Below, one piece after another: positions 933 through 24,268 of a stretch of DNA of 28,356 nt. The translations under genes and the position numbers were made by a program. Each line of letters begins with the position of its first letter. Positions within the stretch are counted from its first letter, which is position 1. The stretch is from the IMG/VR virus record IMGVR_UViG_3300032167_005167. The stretch is one strand, 5' to 3'. The notes under the pieces were generated by a model. That model was not told where the DNA came from. It did no database searches and saw only the letters and a program-made list of their open reading frames with translations. Source of the DNA: an uncultured virus (IMG/VR IMGVR_UViG_3300032167_005167). Its lineage: Duplodnaviria; Heunggongvirae; Uroviricota; Caudoviricetes.

Positions 933-3900
933 TTGATATGTGTCTACGCTCCCGATTGCACAGACTTCTCAAATAACGGACTGGGCATCGTTTCACCCCA
1001 GGCATGTACGGTGACTGAGACACTCAATGGCGAGTGGGAACTGACTCTGGTGCATCCGATTGACGAATATGGCAAGTGGCAGCGGCTTACGGAAGGCTGC
1101 ATTTTACGAGCACCGGTGCCTGCAGCCATGACTCCACAGATTAAGCTGGTAACCCAGCAGTACCAGACCAATACTTATAATGTAGAAATCTATAAAATCA
1201 CGACCAGTAGTGATCCGTTGAGACTGCGCTCCGGTACAGGCACGAGCTATCGGATTCTGGGAAAATACAAAAAGGGCTCAGAGGTTATTGTTCTGGAAAA
1301 GACGACTTCTGAGTGGTATGAAGTGACTTGCCCGGACGGCAAGCATGGCTATATGTCTGCTGAGTATCTGACCTATGAGCGAACGGAGCAAGAGAACGTC
1401 CAGACAAATGTCGGTTTTAGCAACAATATGGTAGAAGCTAGGCAGCTGAGAGATCAGCCGTTTAGGATTTATCGCGTTGTACCCGAACTGGACAAGGTAA
1501 CGGTGTACGCCAGGCATATCTTCTACGACCTGCTCGATAACATGCTCAAGTCGGTGACGCCTGCTTCGGATGCTGTCGGCGCTTCTGTTGTACGGAGTAT
1601 TTCTGACAGGTGCCTGTCTGCGCATGGCTTCAACTTTTACTCGGATCTGGAAACCTCCGCATCGGATGTAGCTTTTGAGAACATCAATCCTGTTGAAGCT
1701 CTGCTTGGTGACGATGGTTTGACCGGGAAATATGGAGCCGAATTGGCAAGGGATTGGTTCGACGTGTTTCTTGTCAGCCGGGTGGGCAATGTCAGTGATG
1801 TCCAGATCAGAGAGAAGAAGAACCTCACCGGCATCTCGTTTGATGTAGATGAAACGGATGTTGTCACTCGCATCATGCCTACGGGACAGGACAAAGACGG
1901 CAAGGTGATGTATCTGCCGGAGCTCTATCTGGACAGCGCGAATATTGGAGCCTATGCGCACCCTAAGTGGATCCATCTTGCCGTATCGAGCGCAAAAGAA
2001 GTCACGGAAGGAGACAATCTAAAGACCGTAAGCGAGTGCTACGAGGAGATGCGCAAGGCAGCTCAAGCAGAATTCGATGCGGGATGTGATTTGCCGACCG
2101 TTACACTCAAGGTTGACTTCGTGAACTGTAAAGACACAGAGGAGTACAAACAGTTTGCAGCCCTCTCAGATATTTTCCTGGGCGATTCTGTTCGAGTGAT
2201 CGCAAAGCGCATTGGCATTGAAGTCAGCATGCGCATGACCCAGTACACCTATGACTGTCTTACCAAGAAGTACACCTCGGTGACGTTGGGTACTGCGGCT
2301 GAGGCGTTGGAAGGCACTACGGTATCTGCGAGGCAATTGGCTTCCGGTTCTATCACGGGCACAAAGCTGGCGCTTAACTCAATCGGAAGCGGTCATCTCC
2401 AAAATGGCTCTGTCGGTAGTCTGCAAGTGAAGGCTGCCGCCATCCAAAGCGCACACATCCAGACTGCTGCCATTACGCAGGCGCATATCGCTGAGGCGTT
2501 GATTGAAACGCTGAACACAAACGCGCTGAATGCTGTGACAGCAAAGATCAAGGAGCTGGCTGCTGGCCAGATTACCACGGATGAGCTGTATGCGTCCATT
2601 GCAATGATCTCGGTTGCGCAGCTTACGACTGCAAACATCATCAATGCTGACATCGAGTGGGCACAGATTGAGTCGTTGGCTGCTGATATCGCCACGATTT
2701 CCAAAGCGCAGATCACAAGTGCAAACATCGACGAGGCCAATATTGACTGGGCGGCAATTTCTACGCTTACTGCGGCGGTTGCCAGTATGGTCAAGGCCGA
2801 TATCGAGACTGCTGATATCGATTGGTCGCATATCAAGGATCTGGCAACCGATACGGCGATCATCACGCAAGGCACGGCTGGAGAATTGTACATTGCAAGG
2901 TTAGCAGTAACCGAAGCGAATATGGTGGCTTTGACCGTCGGTGAGCTAGTAGTGAAAGGCTCAGACGGTCATTTCTATTCCGTAAGTGTGGACGAAGAGG
3001 GGAATATCGTCTCGAAACTGAAGCAGGTTGTAAATGATGATGTTGCTGATTTGTCTATCCATGGAACAGAAAAGCTGATCGAGGGGTCTATTACAGCCAA
3101 AACGCTGAATGTGCAGGAGATCTTTGGTGACAACGCGACGATCCGAAGTCTTATTGCCGCCAACATCGATGTGGATACCCTGTTTGCCAGGGAAGCTACG
3201 CTCAACGCGATCAATGCCATGGACATCACGAGCAACACGTACCTCAAGCTCATGGTGTCCTCTAAGGCTGATCAGACTGCGGTTGATGCACTTGGTGAGC
3301 GCATGGACGCAGCGGAACTGAGAATTACAGAAGATGCCATTGTCTCCACTGTGACCGGATCGCAGAAGTACAAAGACGATTTGGCATCGATCTCAGTGTC
3401 TGGTGGTGGCCCTGAGTTTATTGCGGGTACGCAGACGGCAGCTACAGCCGCATGGACTGGACAGGCCAACCTTACGAAGCTGGTAGATGGCCAGCAGATC
3501 ACGTATTGGTTGCCTTATAATGGCGCAAGCAATGTTACGCTTGAGTTGACGCTGGCAGATGGCACGAAGACCGGTGCGATTCCTTGCTACTACAGTCAGA
3601 ATACGAGACTCGGTACACAGTATACAGCTGGTAATATTCTGCATCTGACATACAGGGAGAATGCGACGTTCAATACTACGACCATTGCTAAAGGCTGGTG
3701 GGCTGATGCTAATTACAATACGGATACGTATGATCGAATCAAGGGCGGTTCCATTCGCGCAAAAGAAACCATTAACTATTTCCGGTTTGCGGTAGGCGAT
3801 GATGAAGGATACTTTCAGTTGGATGCGGGGAAAAGTTTTGATATCAGCAAGCCGATTCTGTGGGTGACTAGCACAGTAACCGCAGGCTATACGACATCCA

Positions 3901-11221: not shown

Positions 11222-12003
11222 GAGGAATCACCTCCATTTTGCGTATCAGGCATCAAGGGTGGCTGCGTTGAAGAAGAGGATGACGGTGCTGCTGCAGGCT
11301 CAGTATTCTTTTCTTTGAGACCATAAACAGCATAATTGTCAAATATGTTGATTTGAAGTGATTTGCGATGTTCCTCATAGGGGATGCCGAACTGATCCTG
11401 CCATTCTGCAGGAAAGATTGGGGTTTTGCTCGTCTTCGGCTTCTCACCTTCTTTTACAATGCGTTGGTACATTTCTGTTGAAGTCAGATCGAAGACAAAC
11501 AGGTATTCACCATTTGCACGGATGAGCTTCCCAAGAATCTTATAGCGATAATCGGGATTCCAACCCATAAGAGCACAGATCTTCATAAAAAACATCTTAC
11601 CGGTGACCTGTCGAGGTTTGCGTTTGCCGCCGCTGTTGGTACACCATTGGAAGGAATGAAGATCGGATTCCTGACAAGGCCGAACAGCCAGTTTGCGTGT
11701 CTGTCGGTTGACGAGAAACTGAATATAGTCAGTCTGAGGCAGCCTCTTTATGCAGCCGGAGTTCAAACCGATCTTGTAGTTGCTGAATGTGATTGAGGGC
11801 TCAAATACGTGGGAGAAGAATTCTCTTCGAACGACCTGGTATTTGTCCAGAGAAAACGAATCATCATCCTCGATGATTTCGTCTCCAATGGGCGAATACA
11901 CGTGGGCCAGCTGGCTATCTGTTGCTTCAGGTGTGGGCAGAAGGTCAGGACTCGTAGGTTGATGCGAAGGGAAGAGGGGTTCGTTGAGCATGTAATCGTT
12001 CAT
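11206..12003 (-). CDS. Hypothetical recombinase-accessory protein, paralogous to the C-terminal domain of the serine recombinase
   Basis: Aligns by eye with recombinase residues ~390-570 (KLAVRP/KLAIRP, PRQV/PRQI, GWNPDYRY/GWNPGYKY); ATGA overlap; RBS GGAGG. Confidence 0.8.
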   Translation of the reverse strand: MNDYMLNEPLFPSHQPTSPDLLPTPEATDSQLAHVYSPIGDEIIEDDDSFSLDKYQVVRREFFSHVFEPSITFSNYKIGLNSGCIKRLPQTDYIQFLVNRQTRKLAVRPCQESDLHSFQWCTNSGGKRKPRQVTGKMFFMKICALMGWNPDYRYKILGKLIRANGEYLFVFDLTSTEMYQRIVKEGEKPKTSKTPIFPAEWQDQFGIPYEEHRKSLQINIFDNYAVYGLKEKNTEPAAAPSSSSSTQPPLMPDTQNGGDSSWQNR

Positions 12004-13868
12004 AATTCAACCTCCTGGGGCTTCCAGTCGCCCAATTCTTGCTGGATGAAACTACGTAGTGTGTCGTAATCGGTCACATGAAGCTTCATACCGATATTGC
12101 ATAGTTGGCCTTCAACATGAAGTTGCCATTCTTCACGTGTTTGTTTTGCTAAAACTGAGAAGGGACGTTCCAAGTAAAAGTCATTGCCGAACGTATCGGT
12201 TAATGAAGCTGGAACTCCAACAACCCGATTGTAGACTTTATTCATGGGCTGGATGGATTCCGGCGAGTGCGTATCATTTGGGCGCTGTATATCATGTGGC
12301 TGGAATAGAATGGTGGCTTCTTTAGCATTGAAGATATAGACTTCTTCTGTGCCGTTTTTTACTAGAGAACTGTACATCCGGTATTTATAGCCTGGATTCC
12401 ATCCAAATAGAGAAAACAGCGTATGAAAAAATGCTGCGCAAGAAATCTGTCGAGGGTATTTTTTATCACCAAAGGTTTTTGCCCAAATAACTGCATTGCG
12501 ATTGTCCTTAGAGGTAGGGCGAATAGCCAGTTTCTGCTGTGTAGGGTGAACCAGAAGCTCAACATAAACATCAGAGTTCATTCGGCGAACGCATTCTGCG
12601 CTGAACTTGATCTCTTTATCAGAAAGGGAAACGAATGGGACATGACCGACATCGAATAAGTCGGTATGCGCAATCTCGAACCCGCGCATATCAAAATCAC
12701 CTGCTTCAACCTCAATGCAAACTTCAGAATTGACTGCATCCAGCTCTTCCTTAGTGTAGACCGAAGCAGAAGCTTTGAGGTATTCCAGTTCCTTAAAGCC
12801 ACTCCAGCGAGGATTGATGATCACATATCCTTTGAGCAAACCATTCGGTATAACACGAAGCTCAGGTAAAATGGATTTGTTGCCATATTTGGCATTTTTG
12901 AGCATGTGCTGAACAGCGATGAAATCGTCGTGCGAGATAATGGCATCGTGCTCATCGTAGTAGTGGCTTCGGGGCCGCTCGCCACGATTCTTGACGGAGC
13001 GATGAGAAAGAACATCTGGCGTATATGTTTTACGGGTATAGACATCGCCGCAATAGCGTTCGTTACGCATCGTTGTGGCGACTCCATTTGCTGTCCATTT
13101 TGCATTTCCCTTGTAGGTCTTTTTGCCTAGTTCGGTGAGTGTATCGGCAATTTGCTTAGTTGAGTAACCATATAGGTACATATAAAACATCAGCTTGGGA
13201 ATGTGTGCTGTTTCAGGATCGGGGATTAGTTTGCCATCATCGTTGTGTGTGAAGCCAAGGAGCTTTGGTGTTAGAGGAAGTCCGTGATCTAGGCGCATGC
13301 GCAGAGAAGTCTCCATGCTCCGGCTCTTGTTTCTCGACTCTTCCTCTGCCATGGTTGCCTGGAAGGACAACGCCATGTTTGATGTTTCATTGAGTGAAAA
13401 GATGTTCTCTGCTTCGAAGAAAACGCCGATGGGAGGAAAACGCTCAGATAGCATGCGGACCATTCCAAGAAAGTCGACAACATTACGCGCAAATCTCGAA
13501 ACGCTTTTTGTGATGATCAGGTCGATTTTTCCCGCGCGGCAGTCTGCAATCATTCGATTGAACTCGTCGCGATGTTTGAGTGATGTGCCGCTGATTCCTT
13601 CATCAGCATAGATACCAACAAGCTCCCACTTGGGATGCCGGATAACGAAGTCCTCATAATACTTCTTCTGCAGCTCGTACGACGTGGTCTGACGGACGTC
13701 GTCCGTTGAAACGCGGACATAGACACCGACTCGTTGAGCGACATCATTATCATAGTAGTTGGGGTCTTTTCGCTCGGGATAATATCTGTAATTGTTCTCA
13801 TCAACCTGAACCCGTACCCTTTGACGAATACGATCTTTTTGCTCCTGATTGGTATAGCGGCGACTCAC
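12000..13868 (-). CDS. Large serine recombinase (resolvase and recombinase domains with an atypical C-terminal domain)
   Basis: YVRVSTDD catalytic Ser, YADEGISGT, TKSVSRFARN, AEEESRNKS; recombinase domain with NERYCGD and HDAIIS; GTG start with RBS GAGGTG. Confidence 0.93.
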   Translation of the reverse strand: MSRRYTNQEQKDRIRQRVRVQVDENNYRYYPERKDPNYYDNDVAQRVGVYVRVSTDDVRQTTSYELQKKYYEDFVIRHPKWELVGIYADEGISGTSLKHRDEFNRMIADCRAGKIDLIITKSVSRFARNVVDFLGMVRMLSERFPPIGVFFEAENIFSLNETSNMALSFQATMAEEESRNKSRSMETSLRMRLDHGLPLTPKLLGFTHNDDGKLIPDPETAHIPKLMFYMYLYGYSTKQIADTLTELGKKTYKGNAKWTANGVATTMRNERYCGDVYTRKTYTPDVLSHRSVKNRGERPRSHYYDEHDAIISHDDFIAVQHMLKNAKYGNKSILPELRVIPNGLLKGYVIINPRWSGFKELEYLKASASVYTKEELDAVNSEVCIEVEAGDFDMRGFEIAHTDLFDVGHVPFVSLSDKEIKFSAECVRRMNSDVYVELLVHPTQQKLAIRPTSKDNRNAVIWAKTFGDKKYPRQISCAAFFHTLFSLFGWNPGYKYRMYSSLVKNGTEEVYIFNAKEATILFQPHDIQRPNDTHSPESIQPMNKVYNRVVGVPASLTDTFGNDFYLERPFSVLAKQTREEWQLHVEGQLCNIGMKLHVTDYDTLRSFIQQELGDWKPQEVEL

Positions 13869-14524
13869 TCGAGATCACCTCGGCTTTCCGGCTCATCAAG
13901 AAGCAGGTCCCAGCTACCCGAGGGGAGAAAGCCAGTTTCGTGCAAATCACTCTGGTAATATGACGCAAGCGTAAATATGTCTTCAGAAATGAAATAAATG
14001 CCTATTGGCTTTGGTTGGGCAGCAAGAAAGCGAGCACAGAACGTTATTTCCTCAGGAGTTCTAGTTACATTGCTAACCTTCTGTGTGATGATGAGATCAA
14101 CTTTGCCGTCCATACAGTCCTGAAGAAGACGAGACCAGTTCTTTGCATTCTCCATATAGGGAGCGGTTTGGCCTTCATCGACGTAGAAGTCATAGATCGA
14201 CCAATTGGGGCAAAGGGCAATGGTGTCAATGAATTCCTGCTTGTGGTAGGCAAGGTAATTGGGATACTTGGTTTGATTGAAGTATCGAATGTATACTCCG
14301 ATACGATAGTGCTCATATGGGCTAGGGTATTCGTGAGGGATACTGTCCAGCCAGAGTTTATGCCGTGCAATCGTTCGACGATGGGCCTCGGTTTGCGGGT
14401 CTCTAGCGAATGGACTTTCCTGTGTACCGTATCGCATTGCATCCCACATGTTCGTTTGACCAATTTGCGCTGTTTGCATGGGTTCCAACAGCTGCTGTTC
14501 CGTTTCATCTACGAATTCGCGCAT
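13865..14524 (-). CDS. Resolvase-domain protein, predicted catalytically inactive
   Basis: Resolvase-like GVYIR...W.IYDFYVDEG...RLLQDC..GKVDLIIT...IGIYFISEDIFTL, but YxRxS reads YIRYF and SRFAR reads SNVTR. Confidence 0.8.
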   Translation of the reverse strand: MREFVDETEQQLLEPMQTAQIGQTNMWDAMRYGTQESPFARDPQTEAHRRTIARHKLWLDSIPHEYPSPYEHYRIGVYIRYFNQTKYPNYLAYHKQEFIDTIALCPNWSIYDFYVDEGQTAPYMENAKNWSRLLQDCMDGKVDLIITQKVSNVTRTPEEITFCARFLAAQPKPIGIYFISEDIFTLASYYQSDLHETGFLPSGSWDLLLDEPESRGDLE

Positions 14525-14666: not shown

Positions 14667-15026
14667 TTACTGGTTATTGTGAATGCTTCGCATAGCTGCT
14701 TTTAGATTCTTAGTTGTTGTGAGGAGCATTTCCATTTCAGCGGGAGTGCAATCAGAGAGGATTTCGCTAAACTCGTGTTGATATAGATTATTTACGGTTG
14801 GTACATCGGCGCGAAGAATTGAGTCTGAAGAAACCTGGAGTGCTTCAACAATGCGCTTGAAACTGGTGACCAGCATTTTTGACCTGCCATTCTCGATGGC
14901 ATTCATTGTGGGCAAAGAAATGCTAGCTTTTTCTGCAAGCTCTGCTTGGCTCATATTCAGCTGAATGCGGGCAGCGCGAATGCGAAGTCCAATCAGTTCT
15001 GGTTCGGTCATCTGGTTTTCGCTCAC
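14667..15026 (-). CDS. XRE-family HTH transcriptional regulator
   Basis: IGLRIRAARIQLNMSQAELAEKASIS....NAIENG; GTG start with RBS GAGGTGG. Confidence 0.9.
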   Translation of the reverse strand: MSENQMTEPELIGLRIRAARIQLNMSQAELAEKASISLPTMNAIENGRSKMLVTSFKRIVEALQVSSDSILRADVPTVNNLYQHEFSEILSDCTPAEMEMLLTTTKNLKAAMRSIHNNQ

Positions 15027-15177
15027 GTTACCACCTCGTAGAGACTATAATTTAGCTTGGACACTATATACAAGTATATTCTATCTTTTTCTGCACGCAA
15101 ATAATATAAAGTAGTGGCTTTATTGAAGTAAGTAGACGTAAATAGAGGTGCAAAAAATTTGTTAGGAGGGCCATACA

Positions 15178-15540
15178 ATGCACCTAAATTACGCAGTCAT
15201 CGGAAAAAGAATCAAGTTGATCCGAACAGAACAGAAACTCTCGCAATTTGCACTGGCGGAGAGAATTGGAAAATCACCGACCTACATTAGTCATATCGAG
15301 AATGGATCTAAGAGCGCGAGTTTGGAGACGTTGGTAACGATCGCTAACGCATTGAAAGTGACAACTGACATACTTCTAGCAGAGTGTCTCGAACATAACA
15401 AAAAGCTAGTGAATTATGAATTCTCAGCTCTGCTTGCTGACTGTAATGAGTATGAAAAGCGTGTGATTATGGAGAATGCGAGAGAGCTCAAGCGGATATT
15501 GAAAGAGAATAGCCATATATCGCATAAGCGCATACGATAA
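15178..15540 (+). CDS. XRE-family HTH transcriptional regulator
   Basis: IGKRIKLIRTEQKLSQFALAERIGKSPTYISHIENG; RBS AGGAGG. Confidence 0.92.
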   Translation: MHLNYAVIGKRIKLIRTEQKLSQFALAERIGKSPTYISHIENGSKSASLETLVTIANALKVTTDILLAECLEHNKKLVNYEFSALLADCNEYEKRVIMENARELKRILKENSHISHKRIR

Positions 15541-15733: not shown

Positions 15734-16405
15734 ATGATCTATGTGATGTCGGATATACATGGACAGAGAAAACAGTTTGAAGAGATGATGGAACTGATTA
15801 ACTTGGAAGATGACGATCACCTTTATATTCTTGGGGACATCGTTGATCGAAATCCTGATGGTATTTCTCTTTTGCAGATGGTCAGACGCATGAAAAACGC
15901 AACAATGCTGCTTGGAAACCACGAACTCATGATGATTGATGCAATCCGAAATCCTGATGATGAGTTTTTGTGGAGACTCTGGTTTCAGAATGGTGGTATG
16001 ACAACCTACGATCACTATATGGAGCTTGAACCGGAGGAGAGAGACGCAATCATTGAGTACATTGATGGACTCCCTGTCAATATTGACATTAGTGTGGGCG
16101 GCGTGAAGTATCTTCTGGTTCATGGAGTGCCACTTGAATCGTGTAAAATCACCAGAAAGAACTCCAATCTTCGTTCTTTATCGGTCTGGTCGCGGATAGA
16201 GACCTGTGATAGCTTTCCGGAAGGAAAGGTGGTTATCTTCGGGCATACCCCGACTGAGAATTATTCGGATGAGGAGACTATGAAAATCTGGCATAAAGAT
16301 TACCTGATCGGGATTGACTGTGGCTGCGCTTATGGAACAAGGGGCAGGCTGGGATGCTTGAGACTTGATGACATGCAAGAATTCTACTCGTCAGGGATGA
16401 TCTGA
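15734..16405 (+). CDS. Metallophosphoesterase, Ser/Thr protein phosphatase (PrpA / lambda NinI-like)
   Basis: SDIHG, GDIVDRNP, GNHE, VHG, FGHTP and IDCG motifs. Confidence 0.9.
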   Translation: MIYVMSDIHGQRKQFEEMMELINLEDDDHLYILGDIVDRNPDGISLLQMVRRMKNATMLLGNHELMMIDAIRNPDDEFLWRLWFQNGGMTTYDHYMELEPEERDAIIEYIDGLPVNIDISVGGVKYLLVHGVPLESCKITRKNSNLRSLSVWSRIETCDSFPEGKVVIFGHTPTENYSDEETMKIWHKDYLIGIDCGCAYGTRGRLGCLRLDDMQEFYSSGMI

Positions 16406-17831: not shown

Positions 17832-18024
17832 CGAGGGGAAACTGGCTGTAGTATGGCTGAGCAAGAACGAGGGTAAAGAGATGGCACAACCAGTCATAGA
17901 TCAGTATCGAGGAAGTGGTTATAGAGTAGTTATTTTCCGATCAGGAAAAGCTGATCTAGTGCAGAGCACCGCTGCGCTCCTAAAGCACAATAAAGAGTCG
18001 CTTGCAAAAGAGGCAGTTGTTTAA
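17812..18024 (+). CDS. Small hypothetical protein (70 aa)
   Basis: ATG at 17812 with RBS AAGGAG; overlaps the upstream gene. Confidence 0.65.
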   Translation: MEVEINDEGKLAVVWLSKNEGKEMAQPVIDQYRGSGYRVVIFRSGKADLVQSTAALLKHNKESLAKEAVV

Positions 18025-18036
18025 ACTAGCGGTTCA

Positions 18037-18065
18037 ATGACATGTAGCAACATATGGACTATGAT
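18037..18065 (+). promoter_or_regulatory. Sigma-A-like promoter for the 213-aa gene and downstream RNA
   Basis: ATGACA-17-TATGAT; near-palindrome ATGTAGCAACAT covers the spacer start. Confidence 0.55.
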
Positions 18066-18096
18066 ATAGCCAGAAAGAAACGAAGGAGTGAAAGTA

Positions 18097-18738
18097 ATGA
18101 ATCTGAAAGAAGCATTCCGCTACCAGAATAAGCTGGGAGCACTGATGACCGATGCAGAGATGATCTTGGAGCGTGAACCCAATATCACTTCTGTCAAAAA
18201 CACTCATCTGCGAAAGAAAGTGTTTGAAAGCGCAGAGAATGAGACGACCGTGGACGAACCGATCACCGAGTTTGCAGGTAACATTACTGAGCTCGCCAGA
18301 TTCGTTGTTCATCTGATGCAGGAGCGTGAAAAGCTCAGCAAGGCGATTCGTGAAGCAAAACAGAAGCTGCCCATTGATATGGACAGCGAAGTGAGCCTCA
18401 ATGCAAAACGGCAAGAAATTGTCCGTGTTTATAAGCGCATGTTGGAGGTACGTAACAAAGAGGTGCTGGTATCCGGTGGTGGCACGGGGTATCGCTTTAA
18501 CCAGGAAGGGAATCAGGTTACCTATCGCTATGACATCCAAAGGGTTACTACGATCAATTTTGATCGGAAGATTGTGCGTAACATTGCTGCTGAGATGACC
18601 AGAAAAGCAGATGAAGTATCTGCTGAACTGGATCGCTGCCTGGTCAACTCCACGGTCGACTATGCGCCAACCTTTGGAGTGAACGACAGTTTTGCAGAGG
18701 TCTTTAAGGCATACCTTGGCGGCCAAGCTGACGAATAA
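18097..18738 (+). CDS. Uncharacterised helical/coiled-coil protein (213 aa) with a central beta-hairpin-like segment
   Basis: ATG at 18097 is 8 nt after AAGGAG (the ORF track starts at GTG 18088). Long amphipathic helices flank GTGYRFNQEGNQVTYRYDIQRVTTINFD. Confidence 0.85.
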   Translation: MNLKEAFRYQNKLGALMTDAEMILEREPNITSVKNTHLRKKVFESAENETTVDEPITEFAGNITELARFVVHLMQEREKLSKAIREAKQKLPIDMDSEVSLNAKRQEIVRVYKRMLEVRNKEVLVSGGGTGYRFNQEGNQVTYRYDIQRVTTINFDRKIVRNIAAEMTRKADEVSAELDRCLVNSTVDYAPTFGVNDSFAEVFKAYLGGQADE

Positions 18739-18744
18739 TCATTC

Positions 18745-19127
18745 GCTCAGCCGCTTTGGCTACGACGGGATAGGGGAATTCGGATATCGGTTCAGGTGCA
18801 GATGAACTATAAGGCTGCACATTCTCCTGATGAAATAGACGGCAGGCCAACCATAACTGGTCGTTGAAAAACAATCCCCGTTTCGTTCATCGCTTAACAA
18901 CAACCGGAATCACCCGTCATCTCGCTAATTTGTCAAATCGAACACTCATCCACACGCCTCCGTGCAAGAACGTGGCTAATCACCACAAATAATGCTTTTA
19001 TGCTTACGGGCATTCTCTGTGACAACTGTACCGGTGGAAGCTTCGATTGAAGTGACCTTAGGCACAAGGAGTCATCTCAAATGGTTGAAGTGTTCTCCGA
19101 TTCCTGTCGTACCCAAAGCGGCTGAGC
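18745..19127 (+). ncRNA. Candidate ~385-nt structured non-coding RNA closed by a long terminal stem
   Basis: The 5' arm 18745-18778 pairs with the 3' arm 19093-19127 (first 15 bp perfect, two G-U wobbles on the + strand). Internal hairpins at 18792-18830, 18991-19014 and 19047-19080; G-poor periodic core. Confidence 0.6.
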
Positions 19128-19423
19128 CAAAAATGATTCGAGCAGCAGGGCTCTTCCTGCTGCTCAAGCATGATGATATTCGATTGAGAGCTTCTCGAAA
19201 CCAGGATTTCATCCATGGGGACTTCGAGCAAAGCTCCAAGAGCGTACAGGTTGTCGACAGTGGGAAGACTCTTTCCGCGCTGCCACTTGTAAATAGCCTG
19301 AGGTTCTTCAAAGCCAAAGTAGGCTTGCAGATCTCGAACACTCATACCGCGCTGCTCACGCAGGCGCATGATGTTCTTGCCGGTTTCGACCATATCGATT
19401 ACCGGGAAAGGCTTCTGTTGCAT
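19058..19423 (-). CDS. XRE-family HTH regulator (121 aa), convergent on and overlapping the candidate RNA
   Basis: ATG at 19423 with RBS AAGGAGG; TGKNIMRLREQRGMSVRDLQ...PQAIYKWQRGKSLPTVDNL; upstream TTGATA-17-TATAAT promoter. Confidence 0.88.
   Translation of the reverse strand: MQQKPFPVIDMVETGKNIMRLREQRGMSVRDLQAYFGFEEPQAIYKWQRGKSLPTVDNLYALGALLEVPMDEILVSRSSQSNIIMLEQQEEPCCSNHFWLSRFGYDRNRRTLQPFEMTPCA
19140..19165. terminator. Perfect 10-bp hairpin (terminator or processing signal) just downstream of the candidate RNA
   Basis: GAGCAGCAGG-GCTCTT-CCTGCTGCTC; no clean U-tract on either strand. Confidence 0.5.
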
Positions 19424-19514
19424 GGCTTTCGCCTCCTTTGCAATATCGTGTCCTATCATTATATCGCCATAACAAGAAGATATCAAGACATTTTGCACCA
19501 GAGGAGGTGTTTTT

Positions 19515-19901
19515 ATGGGCTGCTGTCAGCAAAAGAACTATATAAAGTTTGAGAGCCTCTCATTTTTGTATGATCACTATGCATTTGTTGATGTCCCTCA
19601 ATACTATGCCGATCAGTTGTTCATAAAGCATGAGGTTACCGTCCGGTTTGGAAGGGAGTACAGCCATCCAGAGCATCCATTCATCGTCATCTTTTGCAAA
19701 GTAAGCAAACGCGACAAGGAACGGTTCCTGTCAGCTCTTGAAGAATTAGAGCGAAAAATGATTCTGTGCGGATATCCGCAATACAATCAGTTTTGTCAGG
19801 GCGTTTTAGGTAAGATGGGAGTAAGGTCAAATGCTGCCCAGAAAAAGGGGAGTGATCACTATGACAAGTGCGCCACTGATGAAACAGAGCAAGCGTGCTA
19901 A
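19515..19901 (+). CDS. Hypothetical protein (128 aa)
   Basis: Strong RBS GAGGAGGTG; open frame. Confidence 0.75.
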   Translation: MGCCQQKNYIKFESLSFLYDHYAFVDVPQYYADQLFIKHEVTVRFGREYSHPEHPFIVIFCKVSKRDKERFLSALEELERKMILCGYPQYNQFCQGVLGKMGVRSNAAQKKGSDHYDKCATDETEQAC

Positions 19902-20037: not shown

Positions 20038-20344
20038 CTTGTTTCCAACAGAGTCGAATTGGCGCAGAGGGCGGTCTTACAGACGATCGATGAAGAAACG
20101 CGAATTCGATCGGTTGTTTAGAATTGTAACACGAAGCTATGTCCCGCATGCTGGATATGTGGACTGGTCTTACGTAGATGATCAGTGGAGGCCGACTGGT
20201 AGATACATTAAGTATCCTAAAAACAGCAAAACACAACGCTGGTGTAAGCGGACATCCTGTGCAAGGGTTAGAAAGTATAAGGAACTTCCGCACAAGGGGA
20301 ATGGATATCGCAGAGTTTTCGATTATTGGTGGACAATATACTGA
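19982..20344 (+). CDS. Basic hypothetical protein ending KGNGYRRVFDYWWTIY (start uncertain)
   Basis: Arg/Lys/aromatic-rich ORF filling the gap between neighbours; no clear RBS. Confidence 0.55.
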   Translation: MIEREQNKQIAVSETQLNDLFPTESNWRRGRSYRRSMKKREFDRLFRIVTRSYVPHAGYVDWSYVDDQWRPTGRYIKYPKNSKTQRWCKRTSCARVRKYKELPHKGNGYRRVFDYWWTIY

Positions 20345-20355
20345 GTGGAGGATAT

Positions 20356-20973
20356 ATGGATATTATCGAAAGTGCCATCATCCAAAGAGATGGTTCGCTT
20401 CCTTTACCAGCCAAAGTGGCTGAGCATCTGAAGGTGGGATTTCCGGATGAGGTCACTTTTTCCATTGAAGGTGATTCGGTGGTCATACGAAAGAAACCGA
20501 AGGAGATACCTCTGGAAATCAAACACTATTTGGATAACGGATATGATCTTCTTGCCGCTATGTATCTGGCTTCACGAAGGAAAAAGCTGGTGGATGTGAC
20601 ACCGCATTTCGACTACACGCTGACTCTAATCTATGAAAACAATGAAAAAAGAAGGTTTGACTGCAAGCCGCTTATGGCGGAAGGCGGTCTGTTTTCGCAT
20701 CTTCGAAACTATGGCAGTGTTTTTGTGAATGCAAAGGTAGAAAGCAATGCCGTATGCTGGAGCCTCGGAAAGGGCTACGACAACATTAAACTTGATGCGG
20801 ACACCTGCTATATCAGAAGCATTCCGGATGGCATACCGGATCTTACACGCGAAGAGATGTTGGAAGCAAAAATGGCTTCGCTAGGCATGGGTGTTGAACT
20901 CGAAGAGGAGGAGGCTATAGCTGGTTTTGCGGTTTCACGTCGCATATTGGGCTTGAGCAGGAGGGGAAGATGA
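20356..20973 (+). CDS. AbrB/MazE-like domain fused to a DUF2442-like domain
   Basis: N-terminal IQRDGSLPLPAKVAEHLKV...DEVTFSIEGDSVVIRK; central VDVTPHFDYTLTLIYENNEKRRFDCKPL...F..L...VCW; RBS GGAGG. Confidence 0.7.
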   Translation: MDIIESAIIQRDGSLPLPAKVAEHLKVGFPDEVTFSIEGDSVVIRKKPKEIPLEIKHYLDNGYDLLAAMYLASRRKKLVDVTPHFDYTLTLIYENNEKRRFDCKPLMAEGGLFSHLRNYGSVFVNAKVESNAVCWSLGKGYDNIKLDADTCYIRSIPDGIPDLTREEMLEAKMASLGMGVELEEEEAIAGFAVSRRILGLSRRGR

Positions 20974-21662
20974 TTTACCTTACTGGGGATACACATGGGC
21001 GTTTTGAACGAATCGAGCATTTCTGTGAGAGGATGCAGACTAGTAGAGAAGATATTCTGATCATCCTAGGTGATGCAGGGCTAAATTTCCATGCGGGAAT
21101 GCTCGATATACTCCGTAAAGAGTATCTTTCCAGACTGCCCATCACAGTTTTTTGCATTCATGGTAACCATGAGCGACGCCCAGAAAGCCTTGGAATATAC
21201 ACTGAACAGGAATGGCATGGCGGCATCGTATATGTAGAAAAGAGGTATTCAAACATCCTTTTTGCCAGAGACGGAGAGGTATATGATCTGAAGGGCAGAA
21301 AGGCCATAGCCATTGGTGGCGCTTACAGTATCGATAGAGCGAGACGTGTTGAAGGCGAAAGCTGGTGGCCAGACGAGCAGCCATCGCCAGAGATCAAAGC
21401 TAGAGTGGAAAAGAAACTTGATGACCTTGGATGGAAGGTTGACGTGGTTTTGTCACATACTACTCCGCTCAAGTATGAGCCGGTTGAGGTGTTTTTGCCA
21501 TGGGTTGATCAATCGAAGGTAGACAAATCCACGGAGCAATGGCTTGACAGCATTGAAAGCAAGCTTGAATACAGCCAATGGTACTGCGGACATTATCATA
21601 CTGAAAAGAAAATAGATCGGCTGCAGATTATGTATAATGATTACGCGGCCTTTGACGAATGA
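20970..21662 (+). CDS. Calcineurin-like metallophosphoesterase
   Basis: GDTHG, LGDAG, HGNHE, SHT and GHYH motifs. Confidence 0.9.
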   Translation: MIYLTGDTHGRFERIEHFCERMQTSREDILIILGDAGLNFHAGMLDILRKEYLSRLPITVFCIHGNHERRPESLGIYTEQEWHGGIVYVEKRYSNILFARDGEVYDLKGRKAIAIGGAYSIDRARRVEGESWWPDEQPSPEIKARVEKKLDDLGWKVDVVLSHTTPLKYEPVEVFLPWVDQSKVDKSTEQWLDSIESKLEYSQWYCGHYHTEKKIDRLQIMYNDYAAFDE

Positions 21663-23263: not shown

Positions 23264-24268
23264 GTGAGTTGTGCAACAATGGATCATTTGTTGATTGAGG
23301 AAGTAGATCGTTATCTTGAGTATTGCATAAGCAAGCAGCTGAGGCCTAAGACGATGAAAGCATATGAGCAAGGCCTTCGGTTGTTTTGCAAATGGGCATT
23401 TGATTGTCAATCGTATAAATACTGCGAAGAGATCACGGAGACAGTTATTAGACGTTATATAGTTGAGCTGCAGAAGCGAGGCAAGTATACATTCAATACT
23501 CGGGAAGACGATGAGCTTACAAATTATCCATGGAAAAGGAAAGACTTCAGAGAAACTGTCAGTAACACAACGATCAATAACTATGTCAGATACCTGCGTG
23601 CTTTCTTTCTATGGCTGGAGTATGAGGGGATTATAGAGAAAACCCCTATGCGGAGAGTACGGACCCTTCCCGATCAGAGAAAGCCCAAAGAGTATCTTGA
23701 GGATGATGAGGTTAAGCAGCTTCTTTCGGTTTTAGACAGGAATAATTATTGCGAGTATCGCGATTTGATGGTAATGCTGCTCATGCTTGACTGTGGCACA
23801 CGATTAGGAGAAACGCTTTCAATTGAAGACACGCAGCTTGACCTCGCTGAAAGAACGGTATTCTTGCCATCTGAAAAGACGAAAGGAAGAAGAGGAAGGA
23901 CTGTCTTTTTTTCGAGAAAGACTGCAGGTGAGATGAAAAAATGGCTGAGATATAAAGGGAAGAGTAGACCATCCGTATACACTTTTCCATTGAGCACTGG
24001 GGCTGAAACGATAAGCGTATCTAGCTATGAAAAGCGGTTTAGGGCATATCTGGATCGAACATCTATAACAAAGCATGTTACGCCGCATACCTTGAGAAAC
24101 AACTTTGCAAAACGTTGCTTGCTTTCGGGTATGGATATTTACACTCTGAGTCGAATATTGGGTCATTCTAGCGTAACAGTGACGGAAGAGGCTTACTTGG
24201 ATGTACGTGATATAGAGCTTAAAGGGCGGTACCAGAAGCATAGCCCGATCAAGAATATTTGGGGTTGA
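23264..24268 (+). CDS. Tyrosine recombinase/integrase (XerC/D-like)
   Basis: SAM-like N-terminus and catalytic residues R (CGTRLGE), K (KTK), HTLR, LGHS and Y (EAYL). Confidence 0.92.
   Translation: MSCATMDHLLIEEVDRYLEYCISKQLRPKTMKAYEQGLRLFCKWAFDCQSYKYCEEITETVIRRYIVELQKRGKYTFNTREDDELTNYPWKRKDFRETVSNTTINNYVRYLRAFFLWLEYEGIIEKTPMRRVRTLPDQRKPKEYLEDDEVKQLLSVLDRNNYCEYRDLMVMLLMLDCGTRLGETLSIEDTQLDLAERTVFLPSEKTKGRRGRTVFFSRKTAGEMKKWLRYKGKSRPSVYTFPLSTGAETISVSSYEKRFRAYLDRTSITKHVTPHTLRNNFAKRCLLSGMDIYTLSRILGHSSVTVTEEAYLDVRDIELKGRYQKHSPIKNIWG

What the first reader, a model, noticed from the sequence alone, without database searches (positions are those of the whole stretch)
18037..19423. Candidate protein + large structured ncRNA + convergent HTH module
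Seen: a promoter drives a 213-aa helical protein. Six nt after its stop, GCTCAGCCGCTTTGGCTACGACGGGATAGGGGAA (18745-18778) begins; it is complementary to 19093-19127 (reverse complement GCTCAGCCGCTTTGGGTACGACAGGAATCGGAGAA). Two of the differences are G-U wobbles only on the + strand, which favours selection on an RNA helix over a DNA repeat. The enclosed ~315 nt contain further helices: TCAGG/CCTGA plus GTGCAG/CTGCAC (18792-18830), ATCGGT/ACCGGT (18786/19035), 18991-19014 and 19047-19080. I see no credible ORF of its own on the + strand and recognise no known RNA class. Inference: a co-transcribed ribonucleoprotein system (oligomeric coiled-coil protein plus scaffold or antitoxin RNA, loosely like type III toxin-antitoxin systems), controlled by the adjacent XRE gene. 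The MNLKEAF start is faintly like DIP1984/DUF6847-type proteins; this is unverified.
Basis: partly seen in the sequence, partly recalled or inferred. Interest (0 to 1): 0.85.

Follow-up and report, generated by a model that had tools for sequence, protein, structure and literature searches.

The report
Uncatalogued phage RNA with partner protein
A long, intricately folded RNA that always sits directly behind one particular small protein gene in viruses of gut bacteria looks like a previously uncatalogued RNA-plus-protein module whose job is still unknown.

Summary
Directly after the 213-aa ORF (18097-18738) lies a ~400-nt element closed by a long helix (18732-18778 with 19093-19140). It is not a chance repeat. 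A closing helix follows the homologous gene in 248 of 267 related loci. A search with the RNA core motif alone found the protein gene directly upstream in 64 of 64 loci. Both arms co-vary, and a 36-nt pseudoknot core co-varies (98.8% of cells paired, 0 of 500 shuffles as good). G.U pairs outnumber A.C 169 to 45, so the + strand folds. No Rfam family matches. The protein matches no sequence family, but its confident model (pLDDT 97.4) resembles PDB 3KDQ (Z 11.5).

Best reading: a new class of phage structured RNA, made as the 3' continuation of the protein's mRNA, probably cut out at the closing helix and working with that protein. Binding, processing and function are inferred, not shown. A type III toxin-antitoxin analogy, a retron, a MITE and an invertible DNA segment are not supported. 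The XRE gene is a neighbour only in the window's subfamily. Its ORF runs through a terminator-like hairpin into the RNA's 3' arm.

The parts
18037..18065 (+). Promoter-like site upstream of the protein gene (ATGACA-17-TATGAT)
   Evidence: Consensus scan, 10 of 12. Only 2 sites were found in the region against 2.2 expected, so this is weak.
18097..18738 (+). 213-aa acidic protein of an unnamed family. Helical bundle plus a long beta-hairpin (residues 121-151) with the conserved tip motif FNxEGNQ.
   Evidence: Homologues: 3740 at E<=0.001; 843 representative clusters. No Pfam, NCBIfam or PADLOC family. AF2 pLDDT 97.4. Closest solved fold 3kdq_A, Z 11.5, 145 of 152 residues aligned. Family median pI 5.19.
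18732..19140 (+). Whole structured RNA element, from the outer end of one arm to the outer end of the other
   Evidence: A closing helix follows the homologous gene in 248 of 267 loci; 157 unique elements of 327-537 nt. Fold z-score -5.0. No Rfam match.
18745..18770 (+). P1, 5' strand of the closing helix. In the window, pairing extends out to 18732 and in to 18778.
   Evidence: 28 of 36 consensus pairs show compensatory changes.
19102..19127 (+). P1, 3' strand of the closing helix. In the window, pairing extends in to 19093 and out to 19140.
   Evidence: G.U 169 against A.C 45 over 87 representatives.
18778..18789 (+). P1b (18778-18781) and P1c (18786-18789), 5' strands; partners 19090-19093 and 19082-19085
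   Evidence: RNAalifold on A3 and A11 with covariation; window coordinates.
18790..18820 (+). H-type pseudoknot core. S1 is 18790-18793 with 18804-18807. S2 is 18796-18801 with 18815-18820. One extra covarying pair joins 18803 and 18812.
   Evidence: 59 distinct cores, 98.8% of cells paired, 0 of 500 shuffles as good. S1 pair G-C 49 / C-G 10. Extra pair U-A 48 / C-G 11. None unpaired in either. The core is present in 81 of 84 close loci.
18952..18964 (+). Conserved single-stranded-looking block (window CACACGCCUCCGU; most relatives CUNACRUCUCCAU)
   Evidence: Conserved columns in A3; 8-mer counts. No partner was identified.
19002..19011 (+). Small hairpin (GCC-UUCG-GGC in relatives)
   Evidence: Subgroup consensus of 10 sequences.
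19018..19076 (+). 3' domain: outer helix 19018-19023 with 19071-19076, and an inner hairpin 19040-19044 with 19049-19053
   Evidence: Subgroup consensus with compensatory changes; the window's own cells are imperfect at some pairs.
19079..19090 (+). Conserved block AAAUGGUUGAAG, whose GGU pairs with 18786-18789
   Evidence: Conserved in A3 and A11; 8-mer counts.
19138..19167 (-). Hairpin just outside the 3' arm (stem 19140-19149 / 19156-19165). On the - strand it is terminator-like, inside the XRE ORF (encodes EQQ..CCS).
   Evidence: Variants such as EPQ..CGS and ERQ..CRS keep the pairing while changing the amino acids.
19058..19423 (-). Convergent XRE/HTH_3 gene. Its ORF has no stop before the hairpin and runs through the RNA's 3' arm.
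   Evidence: PF01381 E 2.6e-09. The tail is read in different frames in different loci. 48 of 50 convergent ORFs run 20 nt or more into the element.
19458..19486 (-). Promoter-like site for the XRE gene (TTGATA-17-TATAAT)
   Evidence: Consensus scan, 11 of 12.

Best explanation
The segment 18732-19140 encodes a member of a large, previously uncatalogued class of phage and prophage structured RNAs (about 330-540 nt). Each member is paired genetically with the gene of an acidic ~210-aa protein of 3KDQ-like fold that lies directly upstream.

Comparative analysis shows four things:
- The + strand folds.
- A 25-45-bp closing helix joins the two ends.
- Just inside it sits a conserved H-type pseudoknot.
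- RNA and protein gene occur together in both directions of search.

The rest is inferred:
- The RNA is made as the 3' continuation of the protein's mRNA, from the promoter-like site at 18037-18065, by read-through of the short hairpin that overlaps the 5' arm in many relatives.
- The long perfect-ish closing helix serves as a double-strand-specific (RNase III-type) processing stalk, as for rRNA precursors, and releases a stable RNA.
- That RNA acts together with the protein as a ribonucleoprotein, or as a protein-controlled RNA, during phage early or accessory gene expression.
- In the window's subfamily the convergent XRE gene is an added regulatory layer, not a core part.
For: Coupling:
- A closing helix of score >=15 starts within about 80 nt of the stop codon in 248 of 267 loci. 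Observed median is 24.7 and minimum 16.3 among 157 unique elements. Reversed-sequence controls give median 9.9 and maximum 17.4.
- This includes proteins only about 30% identical to the window's.
- Conversely, 64 of 64 viral loci found by the RNA core pattern alone carry the protein gene upstream on the same strand, ending 62-149 nt before the core.
- No other neighbour is conserved.

Structure:
- 28 of 36 consensus pairs have compensatory changes.
- Pseudoknot: 98.8% of cells paired, against 88.7% in shuffles and at most 51.3% when slid.

Strand:
- G.U 169 against A.C 45.
- All tRNA genes beside the module are co-oriented, in 15 of 50 loci.
- A + strand gene with an SD-like motif starts within 70 nt of the 3' arm in 20 of 84 loci.

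Not coding: XRE tails cross the arm in different frames, and no inner ORF is conserved.

Not a known RNA: no Rfam match.

Expression, a weak hint only: contigs of RNA libraries near-identical to the window cover 18794-19018 (depth 31.8) and 18802-19097. Many other contigs carry relatives' cores.
Against: - No experiment or raw-read data shows a discrete RNA, its ends or its strand. The RNA-library evidence is contigs only, which cannot show strand, ends or level, and may include DNA.
- The protein family is acidic (median pI 5.19, net charge -6). It has no recognised RNA-binding domain, so physical binding is unproven.
- The closest fold, 3KDQ, has no known function.
- In 55 of 87 representatives a local hairpin, terminator-like in some loci, overlaps the 5' arm. 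It could stop transcription before the RNA is made.
- Two locus types, L105 and L113, have the protein gene followed directly by another ORF and no element.
- The interior structure is only partly resolved.
- RNase III processing is inferred from helix length alone.
Confidence: 0.5

Rival explanations
1. A purely cis-acting 3' UTR or intercistronic element. On this reading the big fold only stabilises, insulates or processes the polycistronic mRNA, or tunes expression of the protein gene and whatever lies downstream. It has no trans-acting RNA product and no protein partner.
For: The element sits inside + strand operons: a next gene with an SD-like motif follows within 70 nt in 20 of 84 loci, and tRNA genes follow 9-345 nt after the 3' arm in 12 of 50 loci. 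The 5' arm overlaps a local hairpin in 55 of 87 representatives. The protein is acidic, with no RNA-binding domain.
Against: A 330-540-nt fold with a nearly invariant pseudoknot core is far more elaborate than known stabilisers or processing sites. That core is better conserved than the protein: 100% identical over 36 nt where proteins are about 57% identical. The downstream genes differ between subfamilies while the upstream protein never does.
Confidence: 0.25
2. A type III-like toxin-antitoxin or abortive-infection pair, in which the protein is a toxin and the RNA its antitoxin.
For: A protein gene and an RNA are tightly linked with a hairpin between them, on mobile elements.
Against: There are no tandem direct repeats in the RNA. 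The RNA lies downstream of the protein gene, not upstream. The protein matches no ToxN, AbiQ, CptN or other PADLOC or Pfam model. Its closest fold is 3KDQ, not an endoribonuclease. In large phages the module sits among tRNA genes, an unusual place for a TA pair.
Confidence: 0.07
3. A retron-like template RNA (msr-msd with long a1/a2 repeats) used by a reverse transcriptase encoded elsewhere.
For: The end-to-end inverted repeat resembles a1/a2. In L002 a retron-type RT (PADLOC RT_II-A, E 6e-51) and an AAA ATPase lie directly upstream of a distant homologue that also carries the element.
Against: BLAST with the L002 RT found no relative in the ORFs of the other 82 loci then held. None of the 33 window ORFs scanned has an RVT domain. 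The arms (25-45 bp) and the RNA (330-540 nt) are well beyond usual retron sizes; that comparison is recalled, not tested.
Confidence: 0.05
4. A DNA-level feature: an invertible segment, a MITE or transposon remnant with terminal inverted repeats, or a replication or packaging site.
For: There are long terminal inverted repeats. Recombinase genes exist elsewhere in the window, at 12000-14524 and 23264-24268.
Against: Mismatches between the arms are strongly one-sided: G.U on the + strand 169, A.C 45. A double-stranded DNA site would not show this. The pseudoknot covaries. The arms differ widely in sequence between loci but always match each other. No recombinase is a conserved neighbour. There is 1 extra arm copy among 157 elements. 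The position is fixed relative to one gene.
Confidence: 0.03

Closest known systems
OLE RNA with its Oap proteins (OLE RNP of Gram-positive anaerobes and extremophiles)
   Same: A large, highly structured RNA of unknown biochemical function whose dedicated protein partner genes lie next to the RNA gene. OLE is described as a ~600-nt RNA forming an RNP (abstracts in the listing: PMC9723947, PMC10898510, PMC7936274).
   Different: No Rfam match to OLE. The new RNA is phage-borne and smaller (330-540 nt). Its partner candidate is an acidic soluble 3KDQ-like protein encoded upstream. Binding is not shown here.
ROOL and GOLLD RNAs (large ornate phage and prophage RNAs)
   Same: [quoted passage not shown] Here 15 of 50 loci have co-oriented tRNA genes within 1.5 kb, 12 of them just after the 3' arm.
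   Different: No match to their Rfam models. The new RNA is smaller. ROOL has no known protein partner, whereas this RNA is invariably tied to one protein gene.
Type III toxin-antitoxin systems (ToxIN, CptIN, TenpIN)
   Same: A protein gene and an RNA gene in one transcription unit on mobile elements, with a hairpin between them.
   Different: No tandem repeats. The gene order is reversed. The protein is not a ToxN-like nuclease by sequence or fold.
Retron msr-msd RNA
   Same: A non-coding RNA closed by pairing of its two ends; one distant locus has a retron-type RT nearby.
   Different: No RT in the other loci examined. The helix and the RNA are much longer.
rRNA precursor processing stalks and phage early-mRNA RNase III sites
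   Same: A long helix formed by sequences flanking a large structured RNA inside a longer transcript. This is the basis for the processing inference, and rests on recalled textbook knowledge.
   Different: No cleavage has been shown here. The enclosed RNA is not rRNA-like.
PDB 3KDQ (unknown-function protein of Corynebacterium diphtheriae; recalled as the DIP1984 family) and Pfam DUF6847
   Same: Same overall fold: Z 11.5, rmsd 3.5, 145 of 152 residues; Foldseek probability 0.99. A structural neighbour cluster carries DUF6847 in 14% of its members.
   Different: No sequence-level match to any Pfam or NCBIfam model. The window protein is about 60 residues longer. The function of 3KDQ is unknown. 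That 3KDQ is DIP1984 is recalled and comes from no call.

Membership tests
Any Rfam 15 RNA family | Score at or above the family's gathering threshold | tested here: not met
   0 matches in the whole window. At E<=10, only chance-level hits (mir-15, sR46, Erse) on the window's and L043's elements. In 12 diverse loci only tRNAs and one drum RNA matched, none on the element.
Type III toxin-antitoxin | Antitoxin RNA made of tandem direct repeats | tested here: not met
   The repeat finder on 18000-19600 found only scattered 10-21-nt two- or three-copy matches and no tandem array.
Type III toxin-antitoxin | Toxin of the ToxN/AbiQ/CptN/TenpN endoribonuclease families | tested here: not met
   No PADLOC or Pfam hit for the 213-aa protein. 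No consistent Pfam family among 113 family members. Best fold match is 3KDQ.
Type III toxin-antitoxin | Protein toxicity neutralised by the RNA | not testable with these tools
   Needs expression assays.
Retron | Reverse transcriptase gene adjacent to the ncRNA | tested here: not met
   No RVT_1 among the 33 window ORFs scanned. BLAST with the L002 RT hit only itself among ORFs of 83 loci. L002 is the single exception.
Retron | Inverted repeats a1/a2 at the ends of the ncRNA | tested here: inconclusive
   An end-to-end helix exists, but at 25-45 bp it is far longer than I recall for retrons. The branching-G context was not examined.
DIP1984 (NCBIfam) / DUF6847 (Pfam PF20935) protein families | Match to the family HMM above its cut-off | tested here: not met
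   NCBIfam at E<=1 gave only chance-level hits. Pfam at E<=0.1 on 113 members listed no DUF6847 among the 25 most frequent families.
3KDQ-like fold | Structural similarity over most of the domain, standing above background | tested here: met
   VIA-align: Z 11.5, rmsd 3.5, 145 of 152 residues, next best Z 8.9. Foldseek probability 0.99, TM 0.63 by target. The tool warns that for helical proteins a Z under about 13 can be a common arrangement.
XRE / HTH_3 regulators (the convergent gene) | PF01381 above the gathering score | tested here: met
   37.4 bits against a cut-off of 23, E 2.6e-09.
MITE or other multi-copy mobile DNA | Many dispersed copies with conserved terminal repeats | tested here: inconclusive
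   The window's own genome is not held. Within the loci there is 1 extra arm copy among 157 elements. The arms differ between loci and the position is fixed behind one gene, which argues against this.
Invertible DNA segment | Site-specific recombinase as a conserved neighbour, and both orientations present | tested here: not met
   No conserved neighbour other than the protein. In all 64 loci found by the core pattern, the core has the same orientation relative to the gene.

The most novel reading that the evidence does not exclude
This is a new class of phage ribonucleoprotein. A ~400-500-nt pseudoknotted RNA is excised from an early transcript and bound by a dedicated acidic protein of 3KDQ-like fold. 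The pair is spread across prophages of gut Clostridia and large tRNA-rich phages, and is used to take over or evade the host, for example by acting on the translation or tRNA machinery or on an RNA-sensing defence. It would rank beside OLE, ROOL and GOLLD as a large bacterial or phage RNA class. Unlike ROOL and GOLLD, it comes with an obvious protein handle for experiments.
Probability: 0.4. Interest if true: 0.88.

Novelty: categorically new. Interest (0 to 1): 0.8.

Why it matters
New classes of large, highly structured bacterial or phage RNAs are rare, and the functions of the known ones (OLE, ROOL, GOLLD) are still open.

This class is abundant. The protein family has 843 representative clusters at 50% identity. 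The RNA has 87 clusters at 85% among the loci sampled here. It occurs in prophages of prominent gut commensals, including cultured Faecalibacterium strains, and in large phages next to tRNA arrays.

Because it is tied to one small, confidently modelled protein, the question of what large phage RNAs do becomes directly testable. Pull-downs, cryo-EM of the pair, and prophage deletions are all feasible. It also gives a first functional lead for the 3KDQ/DUF6847-like fold.

Tried and rejected
Searches that led nowhere:
- The window's own assembly is not held, and the nearest virus record, G001, has no match.
- The phage GenBank collection gave one 194-nt, 70% match to the XRE part only.
- An exact 26-nt core search in viral contigs found only L001's contig.
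- ARAGORN found no tRNA or tmRNA in the window.
- A PDB sequence search with the family profile gave best E 0.18. BFVD gave only uncharacterised phage proteins.
- This scan's earlier findings: nothing by place or by sequence.
I used three narrower alignments on viral contigs instead.

Literature:
- DIP1984, 3KDQ and DUF6847: no paper held any of them; all 37 hits came from the fourth term of that search, 'septicolysin', 20 listed.
- DUF7873, PF20935, PF25283, NF038048: 0 papers.
- General searches for phage structured RNAs turned up no description of this element.
- The Minerva preprint (outline) and the Aca paper (passages) concern other RNAs.
- The 15-nt core was not found in the searchable supplements of PMC10690425 and PMC8040213. 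Several large files there were not searched, so it could still be among their unnamed candidates.

Structure:
- Anchored re-alignment of the interior gave no consensus structure.
- The type B core pseudoknot was read by eye only. The 14 cores picked were chosen using pairing itself, 3 of them look mis-picked, and I did not count them.

Third arm-like copy: the copy at 20409-20425 was considered as a trans target of the RNA. It was set aside because relatives have no such extra copies.

RNA libraries:
- X1 and X2 have no contig on the flanking genes.
- A joint skips 18821-19079 in X4 and X6.
- Contigs cannot show ends or levels, so I draw no conclusion from either point.

Homo-oligomer prediction of the protein never ran.
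Full report
THE WINDOW. Pfam scans place the finding in a prophage of a Firmicute type: tail protein, holin, endolysin, two serine-recombinase ORFs, and a divergent pair of XRE genes at 14667-15540. The finding lies in the early or accessory gene region to the right of that switch. The window's own assembly is not held, and the nearest virus record has no match to the region.

THE OBSERVATION. The 213-aa ORF runs from 18097 to 18738. The repeat finder reports complementary arms at 18732-18770 and 19102-19140: 39 nt, 85% complementary, 331 nt apart. Pairing continues inward to 18778 / 19093. The 15-nt arm core occurs three times in the window at up to 2 mismatches, against 0.07 expected. The third copy lies at 20411-20425. 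A promoter-like site sits at 18037-18065. It stays open to 19058, running through a hairpin at 19140-19165 and the whole right arm.

THE ELEMENT TRAVELS WITH THE PROTEIN GENE. The protein has 3740 homologues at E<=0.001 among 4018 candidates, and 843 representative clusters at 50% identity. None is named.
- A scan of one genome per species found 227 relatives; the best 80 were kept. They are mostly Oscillospiraceae, Faecalibacterium and other Clostridia, including cultured strains.
- A core motif lies downstream of the gene in 81 of 84 sequences at up to 3 mismatches.
- In many loci a 36-nt stretch is 100% identical while the proteins are only about 57% identical.
- A long-range helix closes the element in 79 of those 81. 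The two failures are loci whose DNA ends shortly after the gene.
- Three further scans used alignments of distant subfamilies (30-40% identical to the window protein). They added 200 viral loci, 100 of them unique, many from contigs of 60-215 kb.
- Over everything held, 248 of 267 loci with enough downstream DNA have a closing helix of score >=15 starting near the stop codon. That gives 157 unique elements of 327-537 nt.
- Observed scores have median 24.7 and minimum 16.3. Reversed-sequence controls have median 9.9, 95th percentile 12.5 and maximum 17.4.
- Even L002, whose protein is 32% identical, has the helix.
- The exceptions are truncated contigs, two loci with an insertion between gene and arm, and the L105 and L113 locus types, where another ORF follows directly.
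- The converse also holds. A degenerate 24-nt core pattern found 64 viral loci, and all 64 have the family's gene directly upstream on the same strand, ending 62-149 nt before the core.
- No other neighbour is conserved.

IT IS A FOLDED + STRAND, NOT A DNA REPEAT. The arm sequences differ widely between loci, but the two arms of each locus always match each other.
- On 47 representatives, RNAalifold predicts 36 pairs, 28 of them with compensatory changes.
- Mismatches are one-sided. In the outer 24 positions of the closing helix of 87 cluster representatives there are 1827 Watson-Crick pairs, 169 G.U, 45 A.C and 47 other. 67 elements have more G.U than A.C, 10 the reverse, 10 are equal.
- Both strands of the window's copy fold well (z -5.0 and -5.4), so the strand call rests on the comparative counts.

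THE PSEUDOKNOT CORE. Just inside the helix lies an H-type pseudoknot. In the window, S1 is 18790-18793 with 18804-18807, and S2 is 18796-18801 with 18815-18820.
- I counted it on 59 distinct cores: the window plus 58 of the 60 that a pattern picked from the 157 elements. L008 was left out as identical to the window, and L125 by oversight. The pattern left the covarying positions free.
- 98.8% of cells pair, against 88.7% in shuffles (0 of 500 as high) and at most 51.3% when partners are slid.
- The S1 closing pair is G-C in 49 and C-G in 10. An extra pair (18803 with 18812) is U-A in 48 and C-G in 11. None is unpaired in either.
- A second core type occurs in some subfamilies. It is a different pseudoknot-like arrangement followed by a hairpin with the loop AGCGAU. 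I read it by eye only.

THE INTERIOR. It is only partly resolved. A 10-sequence subgroup gives P1b, P1c, a small hairpin (19002-19011) and a 3' domain (19018-19076). No ORF is conserved inside. The XRE tails cross the arm in different reading frames in different loci, so the nucleotides are what is conserved there, not the peptide.

NOT A KNOWN RNA. Rfam 15 gives nothing at gathering scores in the window. At E<=10 it gives nothing relevant on the window's or L043's element. In 12 diverse loci it finds only tRNAs and one drum RNA, none on the element. My literature and supplement searches found no description. Some large supplement files could not be searched.

THE PROTEIN.
- No Pfam, NCBIfam, PHROG-with-function or PADLOC family fits, and no PDB sequence relative was found.
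- With a 113-sequence alignment, AlphaFold2 gives pLDDT 97.4 and pTM 0.81. The model has long helices plus a beta-hairpin (residues 121-151) whose tip carries the most conserved motif.
- The only solved structure that stands out is 3kdq_A, an unknown-function protein of Corynebacterium diphtheriae: Foldseek probability 0.99; VIA-align Z 11.5, 145 of 152 residues, next best 8.9.
- The ESM Atlas lists a structural neighbour cluster in which 14% of members carry DUF6847.
- The family is acidic: median pI 5.19, net charge -6. That is not what one expects of a simple RNA binder.
- Oligomeric state could not be tested because the complex-prediction queue was full at every try.

GENOMIC SETTING AND TRANSCRIPTION.
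- In 20 of 84 representatives a + strand gene with an SD-like motif starts within 70 nt after the 3' arm.
- Of 50 loci scanned, 15 have tRNA genes, all on the module's strand. In 12 of them a tRNA gene starts 9-345 nt after the 3' arm.
- ROOL and GOLLD are likewise described as phage and prophage RNAs often near tRNA islands (passages of PMC12286853).
- In 55 of 87 representatives a local hairpin joins the last bases before the 5' arm with the arm's first bases. In some loci it looks like an intrinsic terminator. Making the RNA would therefore need read-through, and the long helix would then out-compete the short hairpin.
- Six RNA runs from two studies hold small parts of the stretch. I laid four of them. 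Many contigs carry only the conserved core and then diverge; these are relatives. Two contigs near-identical to the window cover 18794-19018 (depth 31.8, 3 differences) and 18802-19097 (6 differences). These are contigs, so they show presence in RNA libraries but not strand, ends or level. I treat this as a weak hint.

MECHANISM. Shown: a conserved + strand fold with a pseudoknot core and a long closing helix, strictly linked to one protein gene. Inferred:
- co-transcription with that gene;
- excision at the closing helix by a double-strand-specific nuclease, by analogy with rRNA precursors;
- action together with the protein.
I put about 0.9 on 'real structured RNA coupled to the protein', and about 0.5 on the full statement including a trans-acting, protein-associated RNA.

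RIVALS.
- The main rival is a purely cis-acting intercistronic element (0.25).
- Type III toxin-antitoxin fails on repeats, gene order and protein family.
- Retron fails on the absence of an RT in all loci but L002.
- DNA-level readings fail on the one-sided wobble pairs, the pseudoknot covariation, and the lack of extra copies or recombinase neighbours.

THE XRE GENE. It is convergent and adjacent in 54 of 83 close loci, but it is not part of the module in distant subfamilies.
- Its ORF has no stop before a hairpin that scores as a - strand terminator (19167-19138, tail ATCATTTTTG).
- In 48 of 50 convergent loci the ORF runs 20 nt or more into the RNA element.
- The hairpin itself covaries at the expense of the encoded amino acids.
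- Transcripts ending at that hairpin would lack a stop codon. + strand transcription through the RNA would run antisense into XRE. Either could couple the two genes. Neither is tested.

VERDICT. The element is best described as a new class of phage structured RNA with a dedicated partner protein gene, of unknown function.

Noticed in passing
window 19058-19423 (-), hairpin 19140-19165: The XRE ORF has no stop codon before a terminator-like hairpin that it encodes itself (EQQ..CCS). It continues into the RNA's 3' arm, in different frames in different loci; 48 of 50 convergent loci do this. Transcripts ending at the hairpin would be non-stop mRNAs, which may be a regulatory device.
   Followed up: partly
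window 20409-20425 (inside ORF 20326-20973, DUF2442/AbrB-like): A third, 17-nt copy resembling the RNA's 3' arm, with one difference from the arm core. It could pair with the 5' arm. Relatives show no such extra copies (1 in 157 elements), so it may be chance.
   Followed up: partly
L002 428-6251: A viral contig carries, in order: a retron-type RT (PADLOC RT_II-A, E 6e-51), an AAA/STAND-like ATPase, a 32%-identical homologue of the 213-aa protein with its own ~440-nt closed element (3396-3834), and a 680-aa protein with an RdRP (PF05183) match.
   Followed up: partly
L114, L116, L120, L121, L142, L146, L154, L156 and others, about 50-90 nt after the stop codon: A second type of 5' core replaces the window's pseudoknot: a different pseudoknot-like hairpin followed by a hairpin with the conserved loop AGCGAU. 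It was read by eye and not counted.
   Followed up: partly
L146 207-3590; L122 1351-3598; L100, L128, L134, L172, L174, L179, L195, L200, L208: In large phage contigs the module sits at or inside co-oriented tRNA gene arrays. L146 also has a drum RNA (RF02958) at 3208-3317.
   Followed up: partly
L105 2136 onward; L113 2118 onward: In two locus types the protein gene is followed directly by another ORF (beginning MAFGKK.. / MAFSRK..) and no closing helix is found. These are possible RNA-less variants.
   Followed up: no
window 15734-16405 and 20970-21662: Two metallophosphoesterase genes flank the region. A homologue of the second recurs downstream of the module in L001 and L042.
   Followed up: no
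window 12000-13868 and 13865-14524 (-): Two overlapping ORFs both hit the serine-recombinase (Resolvase) domain, the second only weakly (E 0.00059). They may be two genes or a split one.
   Followed up: no
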